Assembly: GCA_963786955.1 (NCBI GenBank)
Contig: CAWBAT010000005.1
Span: 1,664,001 to 1,728,000, forward strand
DNA length: 64,000 nt
Source of the DNA: an uncultured Acidimicrobiia bacterium
GTDB lineage: Bacteria > Acidobacteriota > Terriglobia > Versatilivoradales > Versatilivoraceae
Reading direction: 5' to 3'
The notes under the pieces were generated by a model. It was not told the origin of the DNA, did no database searches, and saw only the letters and a program-made list of their open reading frames with translations. The translations under genes and the position numbers were made by a program. Positions 27,972 through 45,980 of the stretch are shown here, piece by piece. The first letter of the stretch is position 1. The number at the start of each line of letters is the position of its first letter.

Positions 27972-29021
27972 ATGGTCCCCCATCCGTACAAATCCTTAAC
28001 GCATTTCAGCGGGCACATTACCTTCTTCTTAGTGACATGCCTTTGTTTGATATTCCGAGTTCTGGAAGTTGAACCGACTTCTCTGAAACGGTACGAATTT
28101 TCTTTGATTCGAATGGGAACCGCATTCCGGATGGTGTTTTATGCCCAGGATCCCGGCATAGCTTCTCAGGCGAGCACCGAAGCCTTTGAGCGCATTGAAC
28201 AGCTGGAACAGATCCTCAGCGATTACCGTGAGGAGAGCGAGCTCAACAGAATTTGTGGGACAGCCTTCAGGGCTCCCCAACGAGTGAGCCCTGAACTGTT
28301 CCATGTTCTGGAAAGGTCGTTGCACTTTTCAGAGCTTTCCGAAGGAACTTTTGATGTAACGATTGGCCCCGTGGTCAAACTTTGGCGGGAGGCGCGACGC
28401 GAGAAGCGTCTGCCAGATGCCGAGCGGTTGTCAAGAGCGCGATTGGCCGTGGGTTTCCAGAATGTCGTGTTGGACTCCGAAACGGGTACGGTATTCCTGA
28501 AACGGGACGATATGAAACTGGATCTGGGAGCCATCGCAAAAGGCTATGCCGCTGACCAGGCACTGGCTGTGTTGAGGGGATATGGCATCAATCGAATACT
28601 AATAGACGCGGGGGGAGATCTATCCTTAGGTGACCCGCCTCCAGGATCCCGGGGATGGGATATTCGGATTCACGAATGGGATAAAGAGCCAAGATCAGAA
28701 GGCCTATGGCTACGGTTGCGCAACGTGGGAATAGCGACTTCGGGCGACACTTTTCAGTTCTTGGAGAAGCAAGGGGAGCATCTTTCTCATATCATCAACC
28801 CTTCTGACGGCATAGGAATAAGGGATTCTGTCAGCACAACGGTGATTGCCCAAGATGGAATTTCAGCGGATGCTCTGGCGACAGCGTTGAGCATTCTTCC
28901 GGTATCTAAGGCATTGGCGTTGGCAGATTCCCTGGAAAACGTGTCTGCATTTCTCGTTCGGCGCAATGGGAATAAGGTATTGTGCTTCAAATCGAGAAAT
29001 TTTCCAGCGTTTTCCAGATAG
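27972..29021 (+). CDS. apbE: FAD:protein FMN transferase (ApbE)
   Basis: MGT, GTFDVTIGP, LDLGAIAKGYAAD, AGGD, ATSGD, HIINP, ADALATA. Confidence 0.95.
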   Translation: MVPHPYKSLTHFSGHITFFLVTCLCLIFRVLEVEPTSLKRYEFSLIRMGTAFRMVFYAQDPGIASQASTEAFERIEQLEQILSDYREESELNRICGTAFRAPQRVSPELFHVLERSLHFSELSEGTFDVTIGPVVKLWREARREKRLPDAERLSRARLAVGFQNVVLDSETGTVFLKRDDMKLDLGAIAKGYAADQALAVLRGYGINRILIDAGGDLSLGDPPPGSRGWDIRIHEWDKEPRSEGLWLRLRNVGIATSGDTFQFLEKQGEHLSHIINPSDGIGIRDSVSTTVIAQDGISADALATALSILPVSKALALADSLENVSAFLVRRNGNKVLCFKSRNFPAFSR

Positions 29022-36104: not shown

Positions 36105-38216
36105 TCACCTCAAGCGCTCGGTAAAAGCTGAGCTGCCGCCATGCAGATGGCAACTGCTCAAGTCGCATGACCGGGCTGTGCGCAGTGCCAACGCGCCACT
36201 CGGGCACGCCTCGGCGCAGCGCCGCCCCACTTCGCGAAGCCCCTCAGAGAGCGGCTTGCTGAACGGCACCGCAACCGTTACATCGAAGCCGCGTCCGATC
36301 ATGCTGACGCCGAGGGCCTCTCCGGCATTGGCCGCAATGCGCACGCAGGCGTCGCACAGGATGCACTTGCCCGGCTCATAGATGATCTCCGGGTGGGAGA
36401 GGTCCTGTGAGAACCGGCGGCGGGCGCCGGCAAAGTGGTACACATCGACGTTGTTTTGGGTTGCCAGAATGCGAACCTTGCAGCAGTCCGCTTTGCGGCA
36501 ACCGCAGGTCAGGCAACGCCGGGCCTCCCGTTGGGCGTCCGCTTCAGGCAATCCGTTCAAGACCTCGTCGAAGCTCGCCAGCCGGCGCTCGCTGTCGATC
36601 TCAGGCATGCGCACTCGCGCCGTCCTCTCGATTGCCCGGAAGATAACGGCCCGCTCGCCGTCATCGACCGGCCGCATTGCGATATCTCTCATCGCGGGTT
36701 CCCCCGTCACCCCTTCGCCTTTCAGGAACTGGTCGATCGATGCTGCGGCGATTCGTCCCGCGGCAACCGCGCGAACGGCGAGGTCCGCTCCAAGCACCGC
36801 ATCCCCACCGGCAAAGATTCCGGGCAGGTTCGTGGCCAGCGTTTTTTCATCAGCAGCGATCCCCCAACCGGTCACCTGCAACCCTTCGTGCTCTGCAACC
36901 GAGCGTTCCACCGCTTGGCCGATGGCGGCGATCACGGTCGAGCACTCGACGTAGAACTCGGAACCATCCACTGGTACTGGCCGCCTCCGGCCCGACTCGT
37001 CCGGTTCGCCCAACTGCATCCGCTGGCAGGTCAGCAACAGCCGATGGTTCCCATTGCGTTCGAGTCGCGTCGGCACCACCAGGAACTTGATGGAGACGCC
37101 TTCGGCTTCGGCTGCTTCGACCTCCTCCATCAAACAGGGCATCTCAGGCCTCGTCCGCCGATAGAGGATCTTCACCGCTTGCGTATCCAGTCGAACGGCC
37201 GAGCGGGCGCAGTCCAGCGCAGTATTGCCCCCACCGACAACGATGACATCCTCGCCGAGAGACGGCGGGTTGCCCTTTGCGACCAGCTCGAGAAACTCGA
37301 CCCCGGAGAGCGCGAGTTCCTCGCCCTCGCAGCGGAGTCCCTGGGCCTGTTGTGCTCCGATGGCGAGAAAAACCGCATCGTGGCTTTTCCGCAGCTCGGC
37401 TAGCGTGAAGTGCTCGCCCCAGCGCATACCCATGCGAAACTCGGCGCCAAGTTTCCGAATGACCTGGATCTCGGCATCGAGCGCATCTTTGGGCAGCCGG
37501 TACGCTGGAATGCCGTACCGCAGCATCCCGCCCGGAGCCGCCGCCGCGTCGAAGAGCGTGCAAGCATGCCCTTTCTGCCGCAGGAAATATGATGCTGACA
37601 GTCCCGCGGGACCAGCGCCGATGATGGCGACCGACTTGCCCGTTGCCGGTGCGCACAGCGGGACATAGGGATCGGCGGAGCGCCAGTCCAGATCGGCTGC
37701 GTAGCGGTGCAGAGCGCCGATCGCCAAGCCCTGGTCGAGTTGCGAACGACGGCACTCCTGCTCGCACAATCGCGGGCAGACCCGCCCCAGGGCACCGGGC
37801 AGCGCGAGCCGGTTAGTAATGACCTCCATCGAGCGCCGGTTGTCTCGCGTGGCGACCTCGTAAACGAACCCCGGAATGTCCAATCCGGCCGGACAGCGGG
37901 CCGCGCACGGGGCCACACATTCACCTGCGTGATCTGACAGCAGCAGCTCCAACGCTATTTTCCGCGCACGCCGCACGTCTTCGCTGTCTGTTGTCGCCAC
38001 CATGCCGTCGGATACGGGCAAGGCGCATGCCGGCGAGAGGGCGCGCCGGCCTTCAATTTGAACGGCGCACACAAAGCAGGATGCCACGGGTTCGAGCCCC
38101 TTTACGTGACACAGCGTCGGGATGCGAATCCCCAGCCGCTCCGCTGCCTCGAGCACGGTCGTCCCCGGTTCCACGTGGATGCTTCGGTTATCGATGGTCA
38201 GGGCAAGCGTTCCCAC
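36105..38216 (-). CDS. Fe-S flavoprotein: NuoG/HydA-like N-terminal clusters fused to a GltD/NfnB-type FAD/NADP(H) module (StnC/NsoC-like, truncated)
   Basis: IPTLC..SCFVC..PAC (2Fe-2S); LLSDH..C..PC...CP; GRVCP..CE..C; GAGPAG; GGGNTALD..YRRT; FAGGD; CLTCGC; KCILCDAC; CAEACPSGAL. Confidence 0.9.
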   Translation of the reverse strand: MGTLALTIDNRSIHVEPGTTVLEAAERLGIRIPTLCHVKGLEPVASCFVCAVQIEGRRALSPACALPVSDGMVATTDSEDVRRARKIALELLLSDHAGECVAPCAARCPAGLDIPGFVYEVATRDNRRSMEVITNRLALPGALGRVCPRLCEQECRRSQLDQGLAIGALHRYAADLDWRSADPYVPLCAPATGKSVAIIGAGPAGLSASYFLRQKGHACTLFDAAAAPGGMLRYGIPAYRLPKDALDAEIQVIRKLGAEFRMGMRWGEHFTLAELRKSHDAVFLAIGAQQAQGLRCEGEELALSGVEFLELVAKGNPPSLGEDVIVVGGGNTALDCARSAVRLDTQAVKILYRRTRPEMPCLMEEVEAAEAEGVSIKFLVVPTRLERNGNHRLLLTCQRMQLGEPDESGRRRPVPVDGSEFYVECSTVIAAIGQAVERSVAEHEGLQVTGWGIAADEKTLATNLPGIFAGGDAVLGADLAVRAVAAGRIAAASIDQFLKGEGVTGEPAMRDIAMRPVDDGERAVIFRAIERTARVRMPEIDSERRLASFDEVLNGLPEADAQREARRCLTCGCRKADCCKVRILATQNNVDVYHFAGARRRFSQDLSHPEIIYEPGKCILCDACVRIAANAGEALGVSMIGRGFDVTVAVPFSKPLSEGLREVGRRCAEACPSGALALRTARSCDLSSCHLHGGSSAFTERLR

Positions 38217-40058
38217 CTAAATCACCTCGATGGCATTGTCCTGGCAGGCCTGGAAACACATGTCGCAACGGGTGCAGAGGTTTCCGTCGATCTCGTGCTT
38301 TTCGTACGGGCGAAACTCAATCGCGCCAACCGGGCAGACCTGGGCGCACAAGGTGCAGCCAATACAATTGTCTTTCACGCGGTATTGAATCAGGGCCGGG
38401 CAGCGTCCGGCCGGGCAGCGCTTTTCGTGCAGGTGCGCCTCGTATTCCTCGCGGAAGTACCGCAATGTTGTCGCCACCGGGTTGGGCGCTGTCTGGCCCA
38501 GCCCGCACAGGCTGCCACGGCTGACATAGTCGGCCAGCGTTTCCAGTTTTTCCAGATCGTCCCTCCGGCCGTTCCCCTCACAGAGTCGCTCGAGAATCTC
38601 AAGCATCCGTTTGGTGCCGATCCGGCAGAACGTACACTTGCCACACGACTCGGCCTGTGTGAACTTTAGGAAGAAGCGGGCCATGTCGACCATGCAGTCA
38701 CGCTCATCAAGCACCACCAAACCGCCGGAGCCCATGATCACCCCCGTCTTGGCCAACGCGTCGTAATCGATTGGCGTGTCCGCCAATCGAGCCGGGATGC
38801 ATCCTCCCGACGGTCCCCCGATCTGGACGGCTTTGAACGTGCGGCCGTTTTTGATGCCGCCCCCGATCTCTTCTACAATCTCCCGGACGGTGACGCCCAT
38901 CGGCACCTCGATCAGGCCGCCGTGGTTGATCTTGCCGGCCAGTGAGAAGACCTTCGTGCCCTTGCTGCTCCCGGTGCCGAGGGCGGCGAACGCTTCTGGG
39001 CCGTTGCGAAGGATCCATGGCACGCATGCCAGGGTCTCAACATTGTTGATGAGGGTTGGCTGGCCACGGAAGCCCCGCTCGGCAGGATAGGGCGGGCGCA
39101 GCCTCGGCATCCCGCGCTGGCCTTCGAGCGAGAGGATCAACGCGGTTTCTTCACCACAGACGAAAGCGCCGGCTCCCTCCCGGACTTCAAGGCGGAGCGA
39201 GAATTGCGAACCCAGAATGCGTTCGCCCAGGTAGCCTCTTTGTTCCGCCTGTTGGATCGCCGACCGGATGCGCTGTACGGCGAGGGGGTATTCCGCACGG
39301 ATGTAGAAATAACCTTCCGCGGCCCCAATCGCGTGAGCTGCGATCATCAGTCCCTCGATCACGCGGTGTGGATCCGCTTCCAGCACCAGCCGGTCCATGA
39401 ACGCGCCCGGATCGCCCTCATCGGCGTTGCAGATGACGTATTTGGTTTTTCCGCTCTGCGCCCGGGTGACCGACCATTTTCGCCCCGTGGGGAACCCCGC
39501 GCCGCCGCGACCTCGAAGGCCGGAATTCGTGATCGCGGCAATCACCTTTTCCGGAGCCGATTCTTTCAGGCAGGTCGCCAGTGCCTGATATCCATCCCGG
39601 GCGATGTAATCGTCGATCTTCAGTGGATCGATCTCACCGCAGTTCTCGAGGACAATGCGCTTCTGTTTTCCGAGATACGCCGCCGCAGCGCCCGTGCTGC
39701 GGTCGAACCGGAACTCCTCCAAGTGCGGTCGGTCGCTGTCCGGCGCGACCCATCCCGCGACCCTCTCGGCCTGCCAGCGTGCCCACGCGCGAAGCCGGAG
39801 GGGGCGGAGGTGCTTCCTAGCAATCTGACGGGCCGTCCCGGGTGTCACGTTGCCATAGAGCGTGGTGCGGCCATCCGGCCCAACGACTTCCACCAGCGGC
39901 TCGCGATGACACATCCCGTTGCAGCCGACTGTCTTGACCACGCCATTCGCGCCGGCTTGTCGGGCCTCCTGCATCAGGACCGCGCGAACCGGCTCACTGC
40001 CGCTGGCGACCCCGCAGGAGCCGAGACCGATCCGGATCTCGACGGCGCCCCGTCTCAT
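38217..40058 (-). CDS. NuoF/HydB-like FMN NADH-binding subunit with an N-terminal thioredoxin-like 2Fe-2S and C-terminal 2x[4Fe-4S]
   Basis: CG.ASG...GCNGMC; LRGRGGAGFPTG; NADEGDPGAFMDR; GAGAFVCGEETAL; SCGKCTFCR; CIGCTLC..VCP, CTRCDMC..AC. ATG 40058 overlaps the upstream TGA. Confidence 0.93.
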   Translation of the reverse strand: MRRGAVEIRIGLGSCGVASGSEPVRAVLMQEARQAGANGVVKTVGCNGMCHREPLVEVVGPDGRTTLYGNVTPGTARQIARKHLRPLRLRAWARWQAERVAGWVAPDSDRPHLEEFRFDRSTGAAAAYLGKQKRIVLENCGEIDPLKIDDYIARDGYQALATCLKESAPEKVIAAITNSGLRGRGGAGFPTGRKWSVTRAQSGKTKYVICNADEGDPGAFMDRLVLEADPHRVIEGLMIAAHAIGAAEGYFYIRAEYPLAVQRIRSAIQQAEQRGYLGERILGSQFSLRLEVREGAGAFVCGEETALILSLEGQRGMPRLRPPYPAERGFRGQPTLINNVETLACVPWILRNGPEAFAALGTGSSKGTKVFSLAGKINHGGLIEVPMGVTVREIVEEIGGGIKNGRTFKAVQIGGPSGGCIPARLADTPIDYDALAKTGVIMGSGGLVVLDERDCMVDMARFFLKFTQAESCGKCTFCRIGTKRMLEILERLCEGNGRRDDLEKLETLADYVSRGSLCGLGQTAPNPVATTLRYFREEYEAHLHEKRCPAGRCPALIQYRVKDNCIGCTLCAQVCPVGAIEFRPYEKHEIDGNLCTRCDMCFQACQDNAIEVI

Positions 40059-40951
40059 ACGAGCTCCTTTTGCTCGACAATGTCCAGCGCTGCGCAGGCA
40101 CTCGCCGGGGTGAGGTTCCCAGCGGTATGGTCGTCGACCATGAGGACCGGCGCCAGGCTGCAGCACCCCAGGCACGCCACCTCGTCTACGGTGAACATCC
40201 TTTCCGGATCGGTATCGGCGTCTTCCGGAATCCGAAGTTGGCGGCGCAGTTCCTCTCCGATCTGTCGTGCTCCCGACACATGACAAGCCGTCCCATGGCA
40301 GACGCGGACGATGTGTCGGCCAACCGGCGACCGGCGGAACCGTGCATAGAAAGACGAGGTCCCCGCAATCTGTGCGGGTGTCACTTCCGTCAGCTCGCAG
40401 ACACGCGCAAGAGCTTCATCCGGCAGGTAGCGATAGAACGCTTGGATAGCTTGGAGAATCAGGATGGCCGATTCCTTGCTCCTGCCCTCTTTTTCTACGA
40501 TTCTGTCCACGAAGGTCAGGTCGATCTCGCCCGAGGCGGAAGCGCCGGAGAAAGGCCTCGCCACTGCGGCGGGCCCTCGGGCCGGTGGCGCTTCCAGTTG
40601 GACCAGCTTGCTCATCGTGACGGGACGACGGCCATCCAGCGCGATCCGCCATTTCGAACTCGCAACGAATGCCGACGCCGCGAGAATCAGCAGAATCGAG
40701 ATCCAGCCGCTCCTTACCTTGCGCGTGCGCCGGGCTCGCGTGACGCCATCCTGTAGGGCGGCGAGCTGCGGCGCGAACGACGAGTCGTTCTGAGCCTGTT
40801 TCTGCAGGGCCACGATGCGCGCGTCATCCTTGGGCGCCCGCAGGCGGGCAGCCACGTAGTCCGCGATCAAAACCAGGACGCACACCGCTACGAAGAACCC
40901 AGCGATTTTGGCCGCGGTCAGCGCCAAAGATCTCTGCCCGTTCGTGGTCAT
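40055..40951 (-). CDS. NuoE/HydC-like 2Fe-2S subunit with an N-terminal two-TM membrane anchor
   Basis: VCHGTACHV...ACLGCCSLAP. Preceded by hydrophobic IAGFFVAVCVLVLIA and WISILLILAASAFVAS segments. Confidence 0.9.
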   Translation of the reverse strand: MTTNGQRSLALTAAKIAGFFVAVCVLVLIADYVAARLRAPKDDARIVALQKQAQNDSSFAPQLAALQDGVTRARRTRKVRSGWISILLILAASAFVASSKWRIALDGRRPVTMSKLVQLEAPPARGPAAVARPFSGASASGEIDLTFVDRIVEKEGRSKESAILILQAIQAFYRYLPDEALARVCELTEVTPAQIAGTSSFYARFRRSPVGRHIVRVCHGTACHVSGARQIGEELRRQLRIPEDADTDPERMFTVDEVACLGCCSLAPVLMVDDHTAGNLTPASACAALDIVEQKELV

Positions 40952-41913
40952 ATCGCGGCTCCAGACTTCGTCTCGCGAGGGCATGCGGCGTAGCACCGCG
41001 CACAGTAAAAGCACTCTTTACGTACAGCCCGCATCTTCTCGATCGCACCGTACGGGCAGGCTTCCGCGCACAGCCCGCAGTCCAGCTCTGTGCTCGGGGT
41101 GATGGTGACGCCGCGTTTTGCCAGTCGAGTACACCAGGAGAGCAAGCCGCCGTACGGGCACAAGTAACGGCAATAGGGCCGCCCCACAAACATGCCCAGC
41201 ACCAAAAATCCTCCGCCGATCAGCATCATGTGAGCGAAGCCTTCTCTGCGGAAGAACCCCACGAACGGGTCGAACCGGCAAATGACGAAGTCACGTGAAA
41301 TGGCAGGCTTCACAGCGAGGAGAATGGCCAGCGCAAGATAAACGTACTTCAACAAACCTAGCGCGTTGTCCAGCCGGCGCGGCACCTGAACCGGCTTCAG
41401 GACAACCAATTCCTGTATTGCGCCCAGCGGGCAGACACCTCCGCAGAAAGCGCGGCCGAAAAACAGTGCCACCAATAACGGCAGGAAGAAGATCGCCGTG
41501 ACAACAATAGGAATCGAGTATCCCGGATCGGCGAGCGCCACCGCGACGTTCTGTATGGAGCCGATCGGGCAGATGCAGCCCTCCCGGTAGAATCCGAAAT
41601 AGGCCAGGCAGGCGACCGTCAGCGCCAGCACCCACTTCCGGCTGCGCTGGGACAGAACCAGCCACACGGAGATCCCCATGGCGGCCGCCAGCAGTACGAC
41701 GTCCAAGACCTGCAGCCAGTATTGCCGCGGCTGCGGCTTTTGGACCTCCGGGGTGACGTAGCCGCCCCCGATGGCTTCTGGTTGGGGGGCCGTTTCGACG
41801 GGACGCTCATAATGCATGGCCTGCCCCGGTGCCTTGCTGGCCAAGGTGAGGCCCAGCAGGACTAACGCCAGCAGTACCACTACGGAACGCCACGTTAACT
41901 TGATCGATTTCAT
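40948..41913 (-). CDS. NapH/MauN/NosR-C-like polytopic 4Fe-4S membrane protein
   Basis: GCICPIG, GRAFCGGVCPLG, RPYCRYLCPYG, CGLC..ACP, CFYCARC..ACP; N-terminal signal/TM; ATGA-coupled. Confidence 0.88.
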   Translation of the reverse strand: MKSIKLTWRSVVVLLALVLLGLTLASKAPGQAMHYERPVETAPQPEAIGGGYVTPEVQKPQPRQYWLQVLDVVLLAAAMGISVWLVLSQRSRKWVLALTVACLAYFGFYREGCICPIGSIQNVAVALADPGYSIPIVVTAIFFLPLLVALFFGRAFCGGVCPLGAIQELVVLKPVQVPRRLDNALGLLKYVYLALAILLAVKPAISRDFVICRFDPFVGFFRREGFAHMMLIGGGFLVLGMFVGRPYCRYLCPYGGLLSWCTRLAKRGVTITPSTELDCGLCAEACPYGAIEKMRAVRKECFYCARCYAACPRETKSGAAI

Positions 41914-43358
41914 GTTACTGGCTTCGCCGCCCCCCCGATCTCGAGAGCCTCTTTCACCTGCTCCTGCGCGATCGCGTCTTTTGGACATGCACTGGCGATG
42001 GCGCAGCGGTTGCAGTCGACGCAGAGGTTGTAGCGTACCTTCAGCACGATGGATCCGAGTCCCAGGGGTTCCTTGCAGCCCTTGACGCATATCCCGCAGC
42101 CGTCGCATTTCTCTTCGTCAATGATGTATTCGTAGAAGTTGTTGGCCGGGTCCTCGGGATCGATCAGGCCGATCGGTTTGCGCTCGATCGCGTCCCGCGG
42201 GCAAAGCTTCTCACTCGGCAGGCCCTTCTCGTCCACTGCGCTCTTGATGTTGTAGTAGGCGGGACAAATGTAGCAGCGGCCGCACTTGGAGAAGTTATTC
42301 ACCGCCCGAACGGCGGACTGCGACACGACGCACTCGCTCGTGCATAGGGTGCACACTTGGGCGCCCACCTCGCCGAGCCGGCTGTTGACGCACTTAGCCG
42401 CGTCAACCTGCCAGACGATCTGCCCGTTCGCCTTTTTAACCAGGTAGCCGGCACCGCCGGCAAACCCGAGAAGAACGGTGCCGCGAACCACCTTGCCCAA
42501 TGCGTCCCGTCTGGTAATCTCTTCGCTCATGGTCTGTGCGTCTTCTTCAAAAGCGAGGATCTCGAGCCTCACGGTGTCGGCGACATAGACCCGGCCGCGG
42601 GTGTCCACCGCGATATCCATGTTCTTGCAGTTGGGGTCGAACACGACCGTCGCAATCACCGAAAGCAGCTTCCCTTGGGAATCATAGACCTTCGCGCGCG
42701 GCTCGGCCTTCTCCGTGACATAGATGCGGTTGCGGCCGACGACGGTCACATTCGTCGGATTGCAGCAGCCTGAAAACCCCGACGGATCCAGCCCGTCGAA
42801 GCGGCCGATATGCCCCAGCAAATGGTCCTCCGGTGTGTAGCGCTCCACGCGGTGCTTGCCGGGATTCGCGGCGTGGATGATACCGTCGGCATCCACACTG
42901 AAATCCAGGACGCCGTTCGGGATCAGGAACCCCTGCATCCGGTTGTTCTTGCCGATATTGTTGAGAAACTTCCCGCCTGTCTCATAACGGCGTATCGCAC
43001 GGTCATTGGCGTCACCTATCAACACGCTGCTTCCGAGAAACCCGATCGCCGTCACGCGCCCGAGCCGCTCAGCGTCGCTCCACCTGTCCGCCAGGCGACC
43101 CTCGCCGTCGAAGATTTCCACCTGGCCCGCCTGGCCCACATACACCGAACCGTCGGCCGCAACCGCCACCGCATATCCCGGTTTGGAGGTGGGCCAACGC
43201 CGCTGGACCCTCCCGTCGGGGTCGAAGATCTTTAACTCTGAATCTCCGACGGCGTACAGGCGATTCCGCCCGTCCACGGCGATACTGCGTAATGTCTGGA
43301 CGAAGCGATCGGAGGCGTCTCCCTTCCCGCTGATGACTTGAACTTGCTTGTACTTCAT
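41910..43358 (-). CDS. NHL-repeat beta-propeller read in frame with a Tat-type polyferredoxin (NapG/MauM-like; internal ATG at 42530)
   Basis: NHL repeats (AVAVAADGSVYV, DIAVDTRGRVYVAD) with GFSGCCNP. Then MSEEITRRDALG..TM.. and CGRCYICP, CDGCGICV.GC, CVDCNRC...ACP. Confidence 0.85.
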   Translation of the reverse strand: MKYKQVQVISGKGDASDRFVQTLRSIAVDGRNRLYAVGDSELKIFDPDGRVQRRWPTSKPGYAVAVAADGSVYVGQAGQVEIFDGEGRLADRWSDAERLGRVTAIGFLGSSVLIGDANDRAIRRYETGGKFLNNIGKNNRMQGFLIPNGVLDFSVDADGIIHAANPGKHRVERYTPEDHLLGHIGRFDGLDPSGFSGCCNPTNVTVVGRNRIYVTEKAEPRAKVYDSQGKLLSVIATVVFDPNCKNMDIAVDTRGRVYVADTVRLEILAFEEDAQTMSEEITRRDALGKVVRGTVLLGFAGGAGYLVKKANGQIVWQVDAAKCVNSRLGEVGAQVCTLCTSECVVSQSAVRAVNNFSKCGRCYICPAYYNIKSAVDEKGLPSEKLCPRDAIERKPIGLIDPEDPANNFYEYIIDEEKCDGCGICVKGCKEPLGLGSIVLKVRYNLCVDCNRCAIASACPKDAIAQEQVKEALEIGGAAKPVT

Positions 43359-43368
43359 AACAGCCTCC

Positions 43369-44628
43369 TTACTTGCCTCGCACGTCCAGGCACACCATTT
43401 TTGTCAGGTCCCGCAGGATGAGCTTGCCGTCCGACAGGGCCATTGGTCCCCAGACATCCGGGCCGCTGAGCACCTGGGCGCTGGCGAGTTCCTTGTACGC
43501 GGTCGTGTTCGCCTCCACCAGCCGGAGCATTCCGGTCTTGCCATCGAGAACAAAGAACATTCCGTCGGCCAGCAGGAAACTTCCCAGGTCAAAAGAGGCC
43601 TTACCGTCGCTTGTCCAGACCTCCTTGCCGTCCAGGCTCAAGCAGGTGAACAAACCTCTTCGCTTCTTTCCAACGGCGAACAGGTGACCTTTGTACACAA
43701 TGGGCGTGTGGACTTCGGAGTTCCACTCGTTGTTCTTCATGTCGAACACGCTCTCGGCATGGAAGCTGCCGCCGTTCGATTGCACCCGGACCATGACACT
43801 GCCGGCGTCATAGCTGGCGGTCATGAAAACACACTGTCCGTCGACCGCCAAAGGCGAAGGTGCAACGGCCACGTTGAACTTTCGCGGGTATTCCCACAAC
43901 AGTTTTCCGTCCTTGGCCGATACCCCGAGTGGGCCGTTCAGCGTGCCCCAGAGATACTGCTTGACGCCTCCAAGAACGGCCGGCATGACCGAGGCATGCG
44001 AGAGCACCAATTTACCCGGGTTGGGAGTCCGCCAGATTTCCTTGCCCGTGGCTTTGTCGAGGGCGACCATGATTGCATCCCCGCCGGTGGCGATGATAAT
44101 CCGATCCTCCTCCATTAAGGGGTTCTGGCCGTTGTACCAGGGGGGGATCACGGTCTTGTATTCGGTGACCAGGTTCTTGGCCCAAAGCTGCTTCCCGGTC
44201 CTTGCGTCCAGGCAATGGAGCCCGAATTTTGGGTCAATCGAAAAGACGTACCTGCCATCCACCGCTGGCACAGTGCGTGTAATGGCGTGGTTGGGGCGAA
44301 TAACACGGGCCTCTCTGTAGCTCCAAATCACCTTACCCGTAGTCAGGAACCGGCAATGAACGCCCCACTCGTTTTTAGCCTCATCATAATCGTTATGGTA
44401 GACGCGGCCTCCCACGATCGCCGCGCCCGCGTAACCTTGGGCGACCGGAATGGTCCACAACACCTTTGGCCCACTTGTAGGCCATTGGTGTAGCAAGCCC
44501 ATCTCTTTGGATATGTTGTCTCGGGCAGGCCCACGGAACTGCGGCCAGTCCGCCCCCTGAACTGCCGGCATAAGAGCGGCGATCGCCACGCAGCTGAGAC
44601 TGATGCGCCAGGTTCGCCATGTGGGCAT
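43369..44628 (-). CDS. Secreted PQQ-like (BamB-type) beta-propeller protein
   Basis: Signal peptide, ADWPQFRGP.RDN, repeated LDA.TGK.LW blades; GAGGAG RBS. Confidence 0.9.
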   Translation of the reverse strand: MPTWRTWRISLSCVAIAALMPAVQGADWPQFRGPARDNISKEMGLLHQWPTSGPKVLWTIPVAQGYAGAAIVGGRVYHNDYDEAKNEWGVHCRFLTTGKVIWSYREARVIRPNHAITRTVPAVDGRYVFSIDPKFGLHCLDARTGKQLWAKNLVTEYKTVIPPWYNGQNPLMEEDRIIIATGGDAIMVALDKATGKEIWRTPNPGKLVLSHASVMPAVLGGVKQYLWGTLNGPLGVSAKDGKLLWEYPRKFNVAVAPSPLAVDGQCVFMTASYDAGSVMVRVQSNGGSFHAESVFDMKNNEWNSEVHTPIVYKGHLFAVGKKRRGLFTCLSLDGKEVWTSDGKASFDLGSFLLADGMFFVLDGKTGMLRLVEANTTAYKELASAQVLSGPDVWGPMALSDGKLILRDLTKMVCLDVRGK

Positions 44629-44674
44629 TGGAATGTCTCCTCGGGGCCCTCCCAGTGGATACAGCACACTCTCA

Positions 44675-44690
44675 AGCAATTCTGATGCCG
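44675..44690 (-). promoter_or_regulatory. sigma54 (-24/-12) promoter of the propeller/oxidoreductase operon
   Basis: Minus strand CGGCAT-CAGAA-TTGCT (GG-N10-GC), 47 nt upstream of ATG 44628. IHF-consensus AATCAATGGCTTA at 44840-44852. Confidence 0.6.
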
Positions 44691-44947: not shown

Positions 44948-45980
44948 TCACGGCTTCAGGATTACCTTCATGAGGTTGGGCTCCTGGCGATAGAGCCGGT
45001 CGAACCACGCTGGCCCTTCGGCCAGCGGAACTACTGCCGTGATGAGCGACTCAACCTTGATCACGCCTTTTGACATCAGATTGATACAAACGGGATACTC
45101 ACCGCTCGACGCACAGGAACCCTGCAGGCGGATCTGCTTTGTCACTACCACTTGCAGCGGTAAGTCGATGGATGGTGCCAGGTTGCCGACCAGTGTGACG
45201 GCGCCGCCCTTGCGAACACTCTGAATCAAGACCTGGATTGGATCGGTCGTGCCCACGCACTCGATAGCCACATCCGCTCCGCGGCCGTCCGTCAGCTCAC
45301 GAATCCTCTCGGCCGGGTCGCCTGTCTTCGAGTTGAGGACATCCGTGGCACCCAGCTTGAGCGCGCGCTCGAGCTTGGCGTCATCCAGATCGAAAGCGAT
45401 CACACGCGGGCAACCAGCGGCTCGTAGGGCCTGGATCGTGAGTAAACCAATCATCCCGGCGCCGGCTACGACGCCCGTATCTCCCAACTGAACAGGCGTA
45501 ATCCGCACGGCGTGGACCGCCACGGAAACGGCCTCAATGAGTGCGGCGTGCTCAAATTGGAAATGGTCCGGAAGCCGATACACGATGCGGCGGGGAACCG
45601 ACACAAACTCGGCAAAAGCGCCGTGGCGGCGATAACTTCCCGGCGAAACGCCCAACACCTCGCGGTTGTCACAGAGATTCAATTCGCCCCGGATGCAATA
45701 GATAGCAGTGCCCACAGTAAACGGTAGAGTCGAAAGTAACGCGGTCGCCTTCCTGAAGGTCATGCACGTTCGTGCCGGTCTTCGCAATTTGACCGGCGGC
45801 TTCATGTCCCATGACGATCGGCGGGACTCGCCGCCCGGTTCGACCGTCCATCCCATGAACGTCGCTTCCGCAGATACCGCACGCCTTCACGCGCACCAAC
45901 ACGTCGTCGGGGCCAATGCCCGGGATCGGCATCTCGACTACTTCCAACTTCATGTATTCTTTAAGCAGAAGCGCATTCAT
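44948..45980 (-). CDS. Zn-dependent sugar-alcohol dehydrogenase (galactitol-1-P/sorbitol DH family), frameshift at about 45710
   Basis: CGICGSD, GHE, YCG.C..C...C, GAGMIG, split between ORFs 45669-46004 and 44948-45856. Confidence 0.9.

What the first reader, a model, noticed from the sequence alone, without database searches (positions are those of the whole stretch)
36105..44690. Membrane-anchored HydABC/Stn-type bifurcating oxidoreductase operonically linked to beta-propellers and a NapGH-like module
Seen: six ORFs (seven modules) with ATGA overlaps or 0-10 bp gaps behind a sigma54-type promoter. Order: secreted PQQ-like propeller, NHL propeller, Tat polyferredoxin, NapH-like membrane Fe-S protein, NuoE-like, NuoF-like, and a NuoG-N/GltD fusion. 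Established: the last three match the architecture of Sporomusa StnABC and Thermococcus Nso/NfnABC, which are soluble NADH-ferredoxin:NADP+ enzymes. The NuoF-like subunit has features of bifurcating HydB subunits (N-terminal Trx-like 2Fe-2S, GDPGAFMDR, a C..H..C..C site, C-terminal 2x[4Fe-4S]). No H-cluster, NiFe or molybdopterin catalytic subunit is present. Inference: a transmembrane complex that couples cytoplasmic NADH/NADPH/low-potential electrons to a periplasmic reaction or the quinone pool, with the propellers as catalytic or substrate-binding partners. I do not recall a characterised complex of this composition.
Basis: partly seen in the sequence, partly recalled or inferred. Interest (0 to 1): 0.88.

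Follow-up and report, generated by a model that had tools for sequence, protein, structure and literature searches.

The report
Membrane-wired bifurcating NADPH oxidoreductase operon
A tightly conserved seven-gene operon of soil Acidobacteria and Planctomycetes joins a cytoplasmic NADPH/NADH enzyme of the electron-bifurcating Stn/Nfn type to an iron-sulfur membrane protein, an exported ferredoxin and two propeller proteins, a combination that the literature searches made here did not find described.

Summary
On the minus strand, 36105-44628 carries six tightly packed ORFs (seven modules): a secreted BamB/PQQ-like propeller, an NHL propeller, a twin-arginine polyferredoxin, a NapH/NosR-like membrane Fe-S protein, and NuoE-, NuoF- and NuoG-N/GltD-like proteins.

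The last three best match the solved Stn/NfnABC bifurcating transhydrogenases. They differ in two ways: the NuoE-like subunit has two predicted N-terminal membrane helices, and the GltD subunit lacks the C-terminal FdhF-like domain.

Anchoring on the NHL gene, all six neighbours are present in the same order in 52 of 54 testable loci (Acidobacteriota and Planctomycetota MAGs).

New findings:
- NHL is normally a separate, signal-less gene. The window's fusion fits one extra base.
- A complex model docks NHL's invariant His/Cys-Cys face onto the ferredoxin's cluster domain (ipSAE 0.78, best control 0.00). This suggests Tat hitchhiking.

The sigma-54 promoter claim is weak. The substrate and the direction of electron flow are unknown. 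Seven literature searches found no description. Verdict: a new membrane-coupled variant of the Bfu family. Interest 0.78.

The parts
44675..44690 (-). sigma-54-like -24/-12 element (GG-N10-GC), 46 nt upstream of the first ATG; weak
   Evidence: It matches 9 of 11 defined consensus positions. The exact consensus has 0 hits in the window. It is not conserved beyond the shuffle expectation in 73 upstream regions.
43369..44628 (-). Secreted eight-bladed BamB/PQQ-like beta-propeller (419 aa) with an N-terminal Sec-type signal
   Evidence: Pfam PQQ_2, 5.7e-25. AF2 model pLDDT 89.8. The best Foldseek PDB matches are BamB (TMt up to 0.76), then tetrathionate hydrolase and PQQ alcohol dehydrogenases. 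It is present upstream of NHL in 78 of 78 testable loci and is 58-81% identical across 60 orthologs.
42531..43358 (-). Six-bladed NHL beta-propeller (residues 1-276 of the 482-aa ORF). It has no signal peptide and an invariant GCCNPTN motif.
   Evidence: AF2 pLDDT 92.6. Foldseek TM 0.83-0.85 to TRIM2/TRIM3 NHL domains. H169, C198 and C199 are present in 61 of 61 orthologs and C244 in 52 of 61. None of 79 orthologs has an N-terminal hydrophobic segment. Homologs are stand-alone proteins of about 275 aa.
42531..42536 (-). Junction where the NHL frame runs into the ferredoxin ATG (42530-42528) without a stop codon
   Evidence: The window reads CAG ACC ATG A. Six of the seven nearest database homologs end in Q-P or R-P followed by a stop. 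Removing one base from ACC reproduces that ending and an ATGA overlap. None of 77 related loci is fused.
41910..42530 (-). Twin-arginine (Tat) polyferredoxin, 206 aa, with 16 invariant Cys, consistent with four [4Fe-4S] clusters
   Evidence: Pfam Fer4 families. RR is invariant in 61 of 61 aligned orthologs, as are 16 Cys. [ST]RR lies within the first 25 aa in 70 of 71 orthologs, followed by a K-A-x-G motif. No NapG/MauM model matched at E <= 1.
40948..41913 (-). NapH/NosR-C-terminal-like polytopic membrane Fe-S protein (321 aa). It has about 6 hydrophobic segments, two CX3C(P) motifs, a GCxCP motif and a C-terminal 2x[4Fe-4S] domain.
   Evidence: Pfam Fer4_5, 1.2e-15, two stretches. NCBIfam NosR positions 410-664, 1.6e-14, and NapH/MauN, 1.1e-9, both far below their cut-offs. 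It is present in 71 of 72 testable loci.
40055..40951 (-). BfuC/NuoE/HydC-like [2Fe-2S] subunit (298 aa) with an N-terminal extension of about 135 aa that holds two predicted transmembrane helices
   Evidence: Pfam 2Fe-2S_thioredx, 8e-40. The best PDB match is Csac NfnC 9bov_C, 134.7 bits, over residues 141-289 only. TM-like segments lie at 16-34 and 79-97. 53 of 61 orthologs have two such segments.
38217..40058 (-). BfuB/HydB/StnC-like FMN subunit (613 aa). It has an N-terminal thioredoxin-like domain, an FMN/NAD site, a [4Fe-4S] site, a His/Cys site and a C-terminal 2x[4Fe-4S].
   Evidence: PDB matches: 8oh5_B 754.7 bits, 9bov_B 749.7, 9n5u_B 747.3. These exceed NiFe-HydB (691), FeFe-HydB (653-565), Fdh beta (418) and Nqo1 (382). 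Motifs are present in 48-49 of 49 orthologs.
36105..38216 (-). BfuA/NfnA-like subunit (703 aa). It has an N-terminal [2Fe-2S], a GltD-like FAD/NADPH domain with two [4Fe-4S], and NuoG-type clusters. It lacks the C-terminal FdhF-like domain.
   Evidence: Pfam Fer2_4, Fer4_20, Pyr_redox_2 and Fer4_Nqo3. PDB 9bov_A at 579 bits aligns residues 5-676 to 5-671 of 1178. 41 orthologs are 669-736 aa long.

Best explanation
The seven modules form one membrane-spanning redox machine.

Cytoplasmic side. A Stn/Nfn-Bfu-type module (NADPH at the GltD-like FAD, NAD(H) at the FMN) is held at the membrane by two helices on its NuoE-like subunit. In the soluble enzymes the low-potential outlet is the C-terminal 2x[4Fe-4S] of the NuoF-like subunit, which reduces free ferredoxin. 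Here I infer that it hands electrons to the ferredoxin-like cytoplasmic domain of the NapH/NosR-like membrane protein.

Periplasmic side. From there electrons would reach a four-cluster polyferredoxin exported by the Tat pathway. This ferredoxin would carry the signal-less NHL propeller with it as a hitchhiker. The NHL face with invariant His169 and the vicinal pair Cys198-Cys199 sits on one cluster loop of the ferredoxin. It is the likeliest site of the periplasmic reaction. The secreted BamB-like propeller is a seventh, structural or substrate-handling partner.

Net reaction proposed: NADPH-driven, NAD+-coupled delivery of low-potential electrons to an unknown periplasmic acceptor.

Shown: gene order and its conservation, domain identities, cofactor-ligand conservation, the Tat motif, predicted membrane segments, and a predicted NHL-ferredoxin interface.

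Inferred: the Bfu-to-NapH contact, electron passage across the membrane, hitchhiking, bifurcation itself, the direction of flow and the substrate.
For: 1. One unit. ATGA overlaps or 0-10 bp gaps join all genes. All six neighbours of NHL are present in the same order in 52 of 54 testable loci. By record title, the 80 loci are 62 Acidobacteriota, 14 Planctomycetota, 3 unclassified and 1 labelled archaeal. No other gene family is conserved in the flanks.

2. Bfu identity. All three subunits best match the solved Stn/NfnABC complexes. The Bfu-type motifs are kept in 48-49 of 49 NuoF-like orthologs. The defining clusters are those described in PMC9304861 and PMC11829005 (passages read).

3. Membrane attachment. 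The NuoE-like extension has two hydrophobic segments in 53 of 61 orthologs. The NapH-like protein has about 6 hydrophobic segments, followed by CX3C(P) motifs and a C-terminal dicluster domain.

4. Export. RR is invariant in 61 of 61 ferredoxin orthologs, and 16 Cys are invariant. NHL has no signal in any of 79 orthologs. In most of the 77 loci the NHL stop overlaps the ferredoxin start.

5. NHL-ferredoxin complex model. The score was 0.78 (runs 0.80, 0.70, 0.78) and the best of 3 controls was 0.00. That mark was reached by 116 of 157 solved complexes and 2 of 215 mismatched pairs. The runs agree in at least 97% of contacts and the partner's pLDDT is at least 77. My own alignments and riding-along clusters were used, so the counts hold only roughly. 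The interface uses NHL residues that are 61 of 61 conserved (P147, H169, R170, G197, C198, C199, K217). It also uses the ferredoxin loop C82-G-R-C85-x-I-C88-P, not the signal peptide. No NHL-ferredoxin complex turned up among PDB relatives, so a pass from memory is unlikely.

6. Direction. From recall, not from a call: NapGH, NosGH/NosR and RdhC-type proteins are described as supplying electrons to periplasmic reductases. The NapGH topology is as quoted in PMC5449189.
Against: - No experiment and no model links the NapH-like protein to the Bfu module. That contact rests on gene order alone.
- No heme or other known transmembrane wire is present. How NapH-type proteins pass electrons across the membrane is unknown (recall).
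- NapGH is described as a quinol dehydrogenase (PMC5449189 passage), so quinone may be the real partner.
- In this window NHL and the ferredoxin are one ORF with the Tat motif internal. That would keep NHL in the cytoplasm, or block export, if the extra base is real.
- The BamB-like propeller has no assigned role.
- The complex model is a prediction.
- Conservation was tested only from the NHL side.
- All 80 loci are metagenome-assembled genomes. No physiology is attached to them.
Confidence: 0.5

Rival explanations
1. Same complex, opposite direction. A periplasmic substrate is oxidised at the NHL/ferredoxin or propeller module. Its low-potential electrons enter the Bfu module and, together with NADH, reduce NADP+ by confurcation.
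For: Stn/Nfn enzymes are reversible, and NADPH formation is discussed as physiological (PMC10482914 passages). Several loci carry arrays of 1-5 further BamB/PQQ-like paralogs upstream (L037, L009, L019, L027). This would suit a set of alternative periplasmic donors.
Against: The secreted propeller fails the PQQ-dehydrogenase model (30.9 against 480) and looks like BamB. No dehydrogenase cofactor site was identified. From recall, described NapH/NosR-type systems work outward.
Confidence: 0.2
2. The NapH-like and ferredoxin pair is a quinol dehydrogenase or quinone reductase, as in NapGH. The Bfu module uses the quinone pool as an acceptor, as Nuo-Bfu was predicted to do. Cytoplasm and periplasm would then be linked only through quinone.
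For: NapGH is described as a quinol dehydrogenase (PMC5449189 passage). Quinone is among the third substrates predicted for Bfu enzymes (PMC9304861). No transmembrane cofactor chain is evident in the sequence.
Against: The NapH-like protein is far below the NapH cut-offs (38.1 against 213; 33.3 against 234). The BfuA subunit already carries its own third-substrate site (the GltD NADPH domain). That leaves only the ferredoxin outlet free for a partner.
Confidence: 0.15
3. NHL is a cytoplasmic partner: an assembly or proofreading factor, or a cytoplasmic catalytic cap, for the ferredoxin before export. It is never exported.
For: In the window NHL is fused N-terminally to the Tat motif. Internal Tat motifs are known to work, leaving upstream parts on the cytoplasmic side (PMC5449189 passages). 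NHL has no signal of its own.
Against: None of 77 loci is fused. The other apparent fusions in the databases (P0052, P0127, P0136, P0138, P0146) show frameshifted stretches. The window's fusion fits one extra base. The model puts NHL on the cluster domain, not on the signal peptide. NHL is 56-75% identical across phyla with invariant Cys/His at the interface, which is unusual for a chaperone. One database protein (P0122) has NHL fused behind the signal-bearing secreted propeller, though that too may be a read-through.
Confidence: 0.1
4. Two independent systems merely share an operon: a cytoplasmic transhydrogenase, and a periplasmic propeller/NapGH-like system.
For: No direct evidence of contact between the halves was obtained.
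Against: Order and presence are conserved in 52 of 54 loci across two phyla, with overlapping stop and start codons at the NapH/NuoE junction. The NuoE-like subunit has a family-specific membrane anchor.
Confidence: 0.05

Closest known systems
StnABC of Sporomusa ovata and NfnABC (Nfn-Bfu) of Caldicellulosiruptor saccharolyticus and Thermococcus sibiricus (PDB 8oh5, 9bov, 9n5u)
   Same: All three subunits have their best PDB matches here. The cofactor-binding motifs are shared: FMN/NAD site, [4Fe-4S] next to FMN, His/Cys site, C-terminal 2x[4Fe-4S], NuoE-type [2Fe-2S], and a GltD FAD/NADPH domain inserted in a NuoG-like subunit.
   Different: - The known enzymes are soluble. Stn was purified from the cytoplasmic fraction.
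- Here the NuoE-like subunit has two predicted membrane helices.
- The BfuA subunit is 703 aa against 963-1178 aa and lacks the FdhF-like domain.
- The genes are locked to four membrane or periplasmic genes.
- The hosts are Acidobacteriota and Planctomycetota rather than acetogens or thermophilic fermenters.
Predicted membrane-bound Bfu complexes Nuo-Bfu and Mbh-Bfu (PMC9304861)
   Same: A BfuABC module proposed to be attached to a membrane complex.
   Different: Those use complex-I-type or Mbh-type proton-pumping modules. Here the membrane partner is a NapH/NosR-type Fe-S protein with an exported ferredoxin and propellers. The main text of that paper has no occurrence of Acidobacter-, NapH or propeller. 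Its supplementary tables were not seen.
NapGH / NosGH quinol dehydrogenases and MauMN
   Same: A Tat-exported ferredoxin with four predicted [4Fe-4S] clusters, paired with a polytopic protein that has CX3CP motifs and a cytoplasmic dicluster domain.
   Different: It is not a member by NCBIfam models. There is no nitrate, N2O or methylamine enzyme nearby. The membrane protein has an extra N-terminal helix and a conserved periplasmic loop. The ferredoxin pairs with an NHL propeller.
NosR / NirI / RdhC-type membrane Fe-S flavoproteins
   Same: The NapH-like protein aligns to NosR positions 410-664 of 680. By recall, these are the membrane and cytoplasmic Fe-S half of proteins thought to feed periplasmic reductases.
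   Different: There is no periplasmic FMN-binding domain. The score is 53.2 against a cut-off of 1000.
Tat hitchhiker pairs such as [NiFe]-hydrogenase small and large subunits (recalled)
   Same: An Fe-S subunit carries the twin-arginine signal. A signal-less partner encoded next to it is predicted to bind its mature domain.
   Different: The passenger is a cofactor-unknown NHL propeller. Export was not tested.
BamB and eight-bladed PQQ dehydrogenases / tetrathionate hydrolase
   Same: The fold of the secreted propeller.
   Different: It is below every family cut-off (BamB 41.8 against 285; PQQ alcohol dehydrogenase 30.9 against 480). It has no lipobox. It is fixed in this operon.

Membership tests
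Bfu family (BfuBC core; PMC9304861, PMC11829005) | BfuB with an FMN/NAD(H) site and the adjacent [4Fe-4S] (B1) | tested here: met
   Complex1_51K, 1.4e-47, and NADH_4Fe-4S, 4.7e-34. The SCGxCxxCR motif is in 49 of 49 orthologs. It aligns to 8oh5_B.
Bfu family (BfuBC core; PMC9304861, PMC11829005) | C-terminal 2x[4Fe-4S] of BfuB (B3/B4), the ferredoxin-reducing outlet that non-bifurcating NuoF lacks | tested here: met
   Fer4 families at ORF residues 636-688. The two Cys motifs are in 48 and 49 of 49 orthologs. It aligns to the end of 8oh5_B and 9bov_B.
Bfu family (BfuBC core; PMC9304861, PMC11829005) | B2 site (3 Cys + 1 His) and the N-terminal thioredoxin-like domain (B5 site) | tested here: met
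   Residues 7-84 align to 2-78 of 8oh5_B and 9bov_B with three shared Cys. The H...C...C stretch is shared and present in 49 of 49 orthologs by pattern. Which metal occupies the sites cannot be told.
Bfu family (BfuBC core; PMC9304861, PMC11829005) | Bfu-specific residues in the NAD/FMN pocket (F182, A202, M204 of the A. mobile enzyme) | tested here: inconclusive
   GDPGAFMDR is present in the window and in 49 of 49 orthologs, and is identical in 8oh5_B and 9bov_B. I did not align to the A. mobile numbering.
Bfu family (BfuBC core; PMC9304861, PMC11829005) | BfuC with the mobile [2Fe-2S] cluster C1 | tested here: met
   2Fe-2S_thioredx, 8e-40. The CHGTAC and CLGCC stretches are at least 95% conserved in 62 sequences. 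The best PDB match is NfnC 9bov_C.
Bfu family (BfuBC core; PMC9304861, PMC11829005) | Electron-bifurcating activity | not testable with these tools
   Needs the enzyme.
Nfn-Bfu / Stn transhydrogenase | BfuA with an N-terminal [2Fe-2S], a GltD-like FAD/NADPH domain with two [4Fe-4S], and NuoG-type clusters | tested here: met
   domains. 9bov_A at 579 bits over residues 5-676.
Nfn-Bfu / Stn transhydrogenase | C-terminal FdhF-like domain of StnC/NfnA (it mediates tetramers in Stn and is partial in T. sibiricus) | tested here: not met
   703 aa aligns to residues 5-671 of 1178. 41 orthologs are 669-736 aa long.
Nfn-Bfu / Stn transhydrogenase | Soluble cytoplasmic three-subunit enzyme that reduces free ferredoxin | tested here: not met
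   By prediction only. There are two hydrophobic segments in the NuoE-like extension, and the genes are fixed to four membrane or periplasmic genes.
NapH (quinol dehydrogenase membrane subunit) | Match to the NapH family models above their cut-offs | tested here: not met
   TIGR02163 scores 38.1 against 213. NF007013 scores 33.3 against 234. The Pfam Fer4_5 repeat is present (57.6 against 22).
NapG / MauM periplasmic ferredoxin | Match to a NapG/MauM family model | tested here: not met
   No such model was listed at E <= 1. The shared features are a Tat motif and 16 Cys.
NosR | Full-length match including the periplasmic FMN-binding domain | tested here: not met
   NF046105 scores 53.2 against 1000, over positions 410-664 only. 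No FMN_bind domain was found.
PQQ-dependent alcohol dehydrogenase | Match to the family model above its cut-off | tested here: not met
   TIGR03075 scores 30.9 against 480. 419 aa, BamB-like fold.
BamB | Match to the BamB equivalog models | tested here: not met
   TIGR03300 scores 41.8 against 285. NF008351 scores 34.3 against 423. Only the fold is shared.
NHL-repeat six-bladed propeller | Fold | tested here: met
   Model pLDDT 92.6. TM 0.83-0.85 to TRIM2/TRIM3 NHL domains. Profile match 1.4e-22 and below.
Tat substrate | Conserved twin-arginine motif, a moderately hydrophobic stretch and a basic c-region | tested here: met
   RR is in 61 of 61 orthologs. [ST]RR is in 70 of 71. K-A-x-G follows in most. 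Export itself was not tested.
sigma-54 promoter | A conserved -24 GG / -12 GC element upstream of the operon | tested here: inconclusive
   The window site scores 9 of 11. 16 of 73 upstream regions score 8 or more, against about 13% of shuffles.

The most novel reading that the evidence does not exclude
This is a previously unrecognised class of redox machine. Flavin-based electron bifurcation in the cytoplasm of soil and aquatic bacteria generates low-potential electrons from NADPH. The electrons are exported through a heme-free, all-iron-sulfur path (a NapH/NosR-type protein, then a Tat polyferredoxin). They drive a reaction at the Cys-Cys/His site of an NHL propeller in the periplasm. If so, the system would also reveal what the enigmatic cytoplasmic clusters of NapH/NosR-type proteins are for.
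Probability: 0.3. Interest if true: 0.9.

Novelty: new variant of a known kind. Interest (0 to 1): 0.78.

Why it matters
Bfu-type bifurcating enzymes are known as soluble enzymes of anaerobes. The only membrane-bound forms predicted so far use complex-I-type or Mbh-type modules (PMC9304861).

This system is different in several ways:
- It is a membrane-anchored Stn/Nfn-type module fixed to a NapH/NosR-type protein, an exported ferredoxin and two propellers.
- It is conserved in at least 160 species-level genomes, mostly of abundant soil and peat Acidobacteriota.
- It would extend bifurcation to a new cellular setting.

It also makes an old question testable: who feeds the cytoplasmic Fe-S clusters of NapH/NosR-type proteins, and how electrons cross the membrane without heme.

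Finally, it points to an NHL propeller with an invariant vicinal cysteine pair as a possible new kind of periplasmic redox enzyme.

Tried and rejected
1. sigma-54 promoter. The exact consensus has 0 hits. Conservation upstream of orthologous operons is not beyond the shuffle expectation. The generic sigma-70 and terminator scans gave nothing above expectation.

2. Conserved flanking genes. Clustering 1950 flank ORFs from 80 loci found no family present in most loci. The commonest (28 loci) were extra PQQ-like paralogs.

3. Gene fusions as evidence for topology.
- The apparent NHL-ferredoxin fusions in the databases (P0052, P0127, P0136, P0138, P0146) contain frameshifted stretches.
- The window's own fusion fits one extra base.
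- P0122 (secreted propeller fused to NHL) could be a read-through.
- I therefore give none of these fusions much weight.

4. NHL as a binder of the signal peptide. The complex model has no contacts in ferredoxin residues 1-50.

5. The Atlas look-up for NHL returned only generic NHL clusters.

6. PDB sequence searches for the NapH-like protein and the ferredoxin gave only generic Fe-S matches.

7. GC content. The operon has GC 0.624 against 0.537 for the rest of the window. This gap is larger than in any of 35 related loci (median 0.031, maximum 0.065). It suggests horizontal acquisition here and says nothing about function.

8. Not done:
- A phylogeny against Stn/Nfn/Hyd references, because no reference sequences were available as ids.
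- Metagenome and viral contig collections, which were closed.
- Host taxonomy from GroEL.

Full report
**What is there**

The feature lies on the minus strand. Start-codon inspection gives this gene model:
- a PQQ-like gene, 44628-43369;
- a 10-bp gap;
- one 482-aa ORF, 43358-41910, holding an NHL propeller (residues 1-276) and a ferredoxin that begins at an internal ATG (42530);
- a NapH-like gene, 41913-40948;
- a NuoE-like gene, 40951-40055;
- a NuoF-like gene, 40058-38217;
- a GltD-fusion gene, 38216-36105.

Three junctions are ATGA overlaps and one is a 0-bp gap.

The sigma-54 element at 44690-44675 matches 9 of 11 defined consensus positions. The exact consensus is absent from the window. 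Upstream regions of orthologous operons do not carry such a site more often than shuffled sequence: 16 of 73 score 8 or more, against about 13% of shuffles.

**The cytoplasmic module**

Against all PDB chains, the NuoF-like protein best matches three Bfu-type enzymes:
- 8oh5_B, the Stn complex of Sporomusa ovata, 754.7 bits;
- 9bov_B, Caldicellulosiruptor NfnB, 749.7 bits;
- 9n5u_B, Thermococcus sibiricus NfnB, 747.3 bits.

These are ahead of NiFe-HydB (691), FeFe-HydB (653-565), formate dehydrogenase beta (418) and complex I Nqo1 (382).

The GltD fusion best matches NfnA 9bov_A (579 bits), 8oh5_C and 9n5u_A. The NuoE-like protein best matches NfnC 9bov_C.

The features that papers use to define the Bfu family are all present and conserved in 48-49 of 49 orthologs (passages of PMC9304861 and PMC11829005 read):
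- FMN with an adjacent [4Fe-4S];
- a 3Cys-1His site;
- an N-terminal thioredoxin-like domain;
- C-terminal 2x[4Fe-4S] as the ferredoxin outlet;
- the NuoE-type [2Fe-2S].

Two things differ from the solved enzymes:
- The BfuA-like subunit stops after the NuoG-type clusters. Its 703 aa align to residues 5-671 of 1178, and orthologs are 669-736 aa long. It therefore lacks the FdhF-like domain, which in Stn is inactive and mediates tetramers (PMC10482914 passages).
- The NuoE-like subunit carries an N-terminal extension of about 135 aa with no PDB match. It has two hydrophobic segments, found in 53 of 61 orthologs. Stn, by contrast, was purified from the cytoplasmic fraction.

**The membrane and periplasmic genes**

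The NapH-like protein has:
- about six hydrophobic segments;
- two Fer4_5 units, each a helix followed by a CX3C(P) motif;
- a further conserved GCxCP motif;
- a conserved loop after the first helix;
- a C-terminal 2x[4Fe-4S] domain.

It aligns to the C-terminal part of NosR and to NapH/MauN, far below their cut-offs.

The ferredoxin has an invariant twin-arginine motif (RR in 61 of 61). A weakly hydrophobic stretch follows, then a K-A-x-G motif, and 16 invariant cysteines. It matches no NapG/MauM model even at E <= 1. 'NapGH-like' therefore describes architecture, not membership.

The secreted propeller models as an eight-bladed BamB-like fold (pLDDT 89.8). The best Foldseek matches are BamB, then tetrathionate hydrolase and PQQ dehydrogenases. 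It fails the PQQ-dehydrogenase and BamB family models.

The NHL protein models as a canonical six-bladed NHL propeller (pLDDT 92.6; TM 0.83-0.85 to TRIM2/TRIM3).

**Conservation**

The NHL protein belongs to a large family of stand-alone proteins of about 275 aa that are 60-87% identical to it.

A scan of one genome per species with an NHL alignment found 160 loci, of which the best 80 were kept. By record title these are 62 Acidobacteriota (Bryobacterales, Solibacter, Vicinamibacterales, Terriglobia), 14 Planctomycetota, 3 unclassified and 1 labelled archaeal. All are MAGs.

tblastn with the seven window modules was scored where the contig reaches far enough:

| Neighbour of NHL | Present / testable loci |
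|---|---|
| Secreted propeller | 78 / 78 |
| Ferredoxin | 76 / 77 |
| NapH-like | 71 / 72 |
| NuoE-like | 65 / 66 |
| NuoF-like | 60 / 61 |
| GltD fusion | 53 / 55 |
| All six together | 52 / 54 |

All are in the same order and on the same strand. The two exceptions are:
- L073, where a run of N follows the NHL gene directly;
- L009, a frameshifted second copy in a MAG whose other copy (L005) is complete.

No further gene family is conserved in the flanks. Note that the scan was anchored on NHL only. Whether close NuoF/GltD relatives occur without the membrane genes remains untested.

**The NHL-ferredoxin relation**

In most of the 77 loci that hold both genes, the NHL stop overlaps the ferredoxin start. 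None is fused.

In the window the two are one ORF. The junction reads CAG ACC ATG A. Six of the seven nearest database homologs end in Q-P or R-P followed by a stop. Dropping one base of ACC reproduces exactly that ending and an ATGA overlap. The fusion is thus a one-base difference, either real or a sequencing error.

Other apparent fusions in the protein collections carry frameshifted stretches. I therefore do not use fusions to infer topology.

A complex prediction of NHL with the ferredoxin, each with 61-row alignments and four riding-along clusters, gave these results:
- The score was 0.78 (runs 0.80, 0.70, 0.78) against a best control of 0.00.
- That mark was reached by 116 of 157 solved complexes and 2 of 215 mismatched pairs.
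- The runs agree in at least 97% of contacts, and the partner's pLDDT is at least 77.
- The counts hold only roughly, because my own alignments and small molecules were used.

On the NHL side the contacts include residues that are 61 of 61 conserved: P147, H169, R170, G197, C198, C199 and K217. C244 is conserved in 52 of 61. On the ferredoxin side the contacts are the invariant loop C82-G-R-C85-x-I-C88-P and neighbouring conserved stretches. There are none in the signal peptide. Ferredoxin numbering starts one residue after its ATG.

So there is a signal-less protein, encoded next to and translationally coupled with a Tat-signal Fe-S protein, and predicted to bind its folded domain. From recall, this is the pattern of Tat hitchhikers such as hydrogenase large subunits.

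**How it most likely works**

Putting the parts together, I propose the following path:
1. An Stn/Nfn-type bifurcating module sits at the membrane.
2. Its low-potential outlet feeds the ferredoxin-like cytoplasmic domain of the NapH-like protein instead of a free ferredoxin.
3. Electrons then reach the exported polyferredoxin.
4. The terminal reaction takes place at the NHL Cys-Cys/His face in the periplasm.
5. The BamB-like propeller acts as an accessory.

The steps from gene order to physical contact, the passage across the membrane, bifurcation itself, the direction of flow and the substrate are all inferred.

I keep four rivals open:
- The reverse direction, with periplasmic oxidation feeding NADPH formation.
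- A quinone-mediated link, as in NapGH.
- A purely cytoplasmic role for NHL. This is what the window's own fused ORF would imply if its extra base is real. Internal Tat motifs are known to leave upstream parts in the cytoplasm (PMC5449189 passages).
- Two independent systems sharing an operon.

**Comparison and novelty**

The cytoplasmic part is a member of the Bfu family by every sequence feature I could test, and is closest to Nfn-Bfu/Stn. It fails two traits of the characterised enzymes: solubility (by prediction) and the FdhF-like domain.

The paper that defined the family predicts membrane-bound forms only with Mbh-type and complex-I-type modules. Its main text has no occurrence of Acidobacter-, NapH or propeller. 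Its supplementary tables, which I did not see, may list these sequences among 17 unassigned clades.

Seven full-text searches found no description of this gene set. In one search, no paper held 5 of the 6 terms. The library lacks most subscription journals, so absence from print is not proven.

I rate it a new variant of a known kind.

**Context in the window**

The operon has GC 0.624 (GC3 0.74-0.78) against 0.537 for the rest of the window. This gap is larger than in any of 35 related loci. The flanking genes are glycoside hydrolases, an esterase, GroEL and an outer-membrane barrel typical of a polysaccharide-degrading bacterium. The operon was probably acquired horizontally here.

Noticed in passing
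window 36105-44628 versus flanks: The operon is a GC island: 0.624 against 0.537, with GC3 of 0.74-0.78 against 0.56-0.63 in neighbouring genes. The contrast exceeds that in all 35 related loci compared. This suggests recent horizontal acquisition.
   Followed up: partly
window 44948-45856 (-): A 302-aa ORF matches only the C-terminal zinc-dehydrogenase cofactor domain (ADH_zinc_N) and has GC 0.60, like the operon. It may be a truncated gene at the edge of the acquired segment.
   Followed up: no
window 27972-29021 (+): An ApbE-family flavin transferase gene (4e-71) lies about 7 kb from the operon. By recall, ApbE flavinylates periplasmic domains of NosR/Rnf/Nqr-type proteins. The NapH-like protein here has no FMN-binding domain, so a link is doubtful.
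   Followed up: no
L037 821-7864; L009 1295-6414; L019 91-5808; L027 5-6429: Arrays of four to six further BamB/PQQ-like paralogs (about 22-34% identical to the operon's propeller) lie just upstream of the operon in several loci. There are none in the window.
   Followed up: partly
L037 12499-15303: In this Phycisphaerales MAG the NuoE-like gene (with its membrane extension) and the NuoF-like gene form a single 934-aa ORF.
   Followed up: no
L005 and L009 (same MAG): One genome holds two copies of the cluster. The second has a frameshifted NuoF-like gene and no GltD gene.
   Followed up: partly
protein P0122 (733 aa): This database protein has the signal-bearing secreted propeller fused in frame to the NHL propeller through a linker of about 26 aa. 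It is either a real fusion, which would place NHL in the periplasm, or a read-through. Its cluster could not be inspected.
   Followed up: partly
proteins P0145 (535 aa) and P0157 (627 aa): These are more distant NHL relatives (34-39% identical) that keep a GCCNPVN motif and carry an unrelated C-terminal domain of about 220-250 aa. The vicinal Cys motif may mark a wider NHL subfamily.
   Followed up: no
L065: A complete copy of the cluster sits on a contig whose record is labelled Candidatus Bathyarchaeia archaeon, while its proteins are 53-75% identical to the bacterial ones. This is probably a binning error.
   Followed up: no
L003, L014, L036, L057 (upstream of the propeller gene): The Vicinamibacterales loci share a similar GG-N10-GC element ending in TTTGCA (CTTGCA in L003), 11-61 nt before the start codon. 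A sigma-54 promoter may exist in that sublineage even though it is not general.
   Followed up: no
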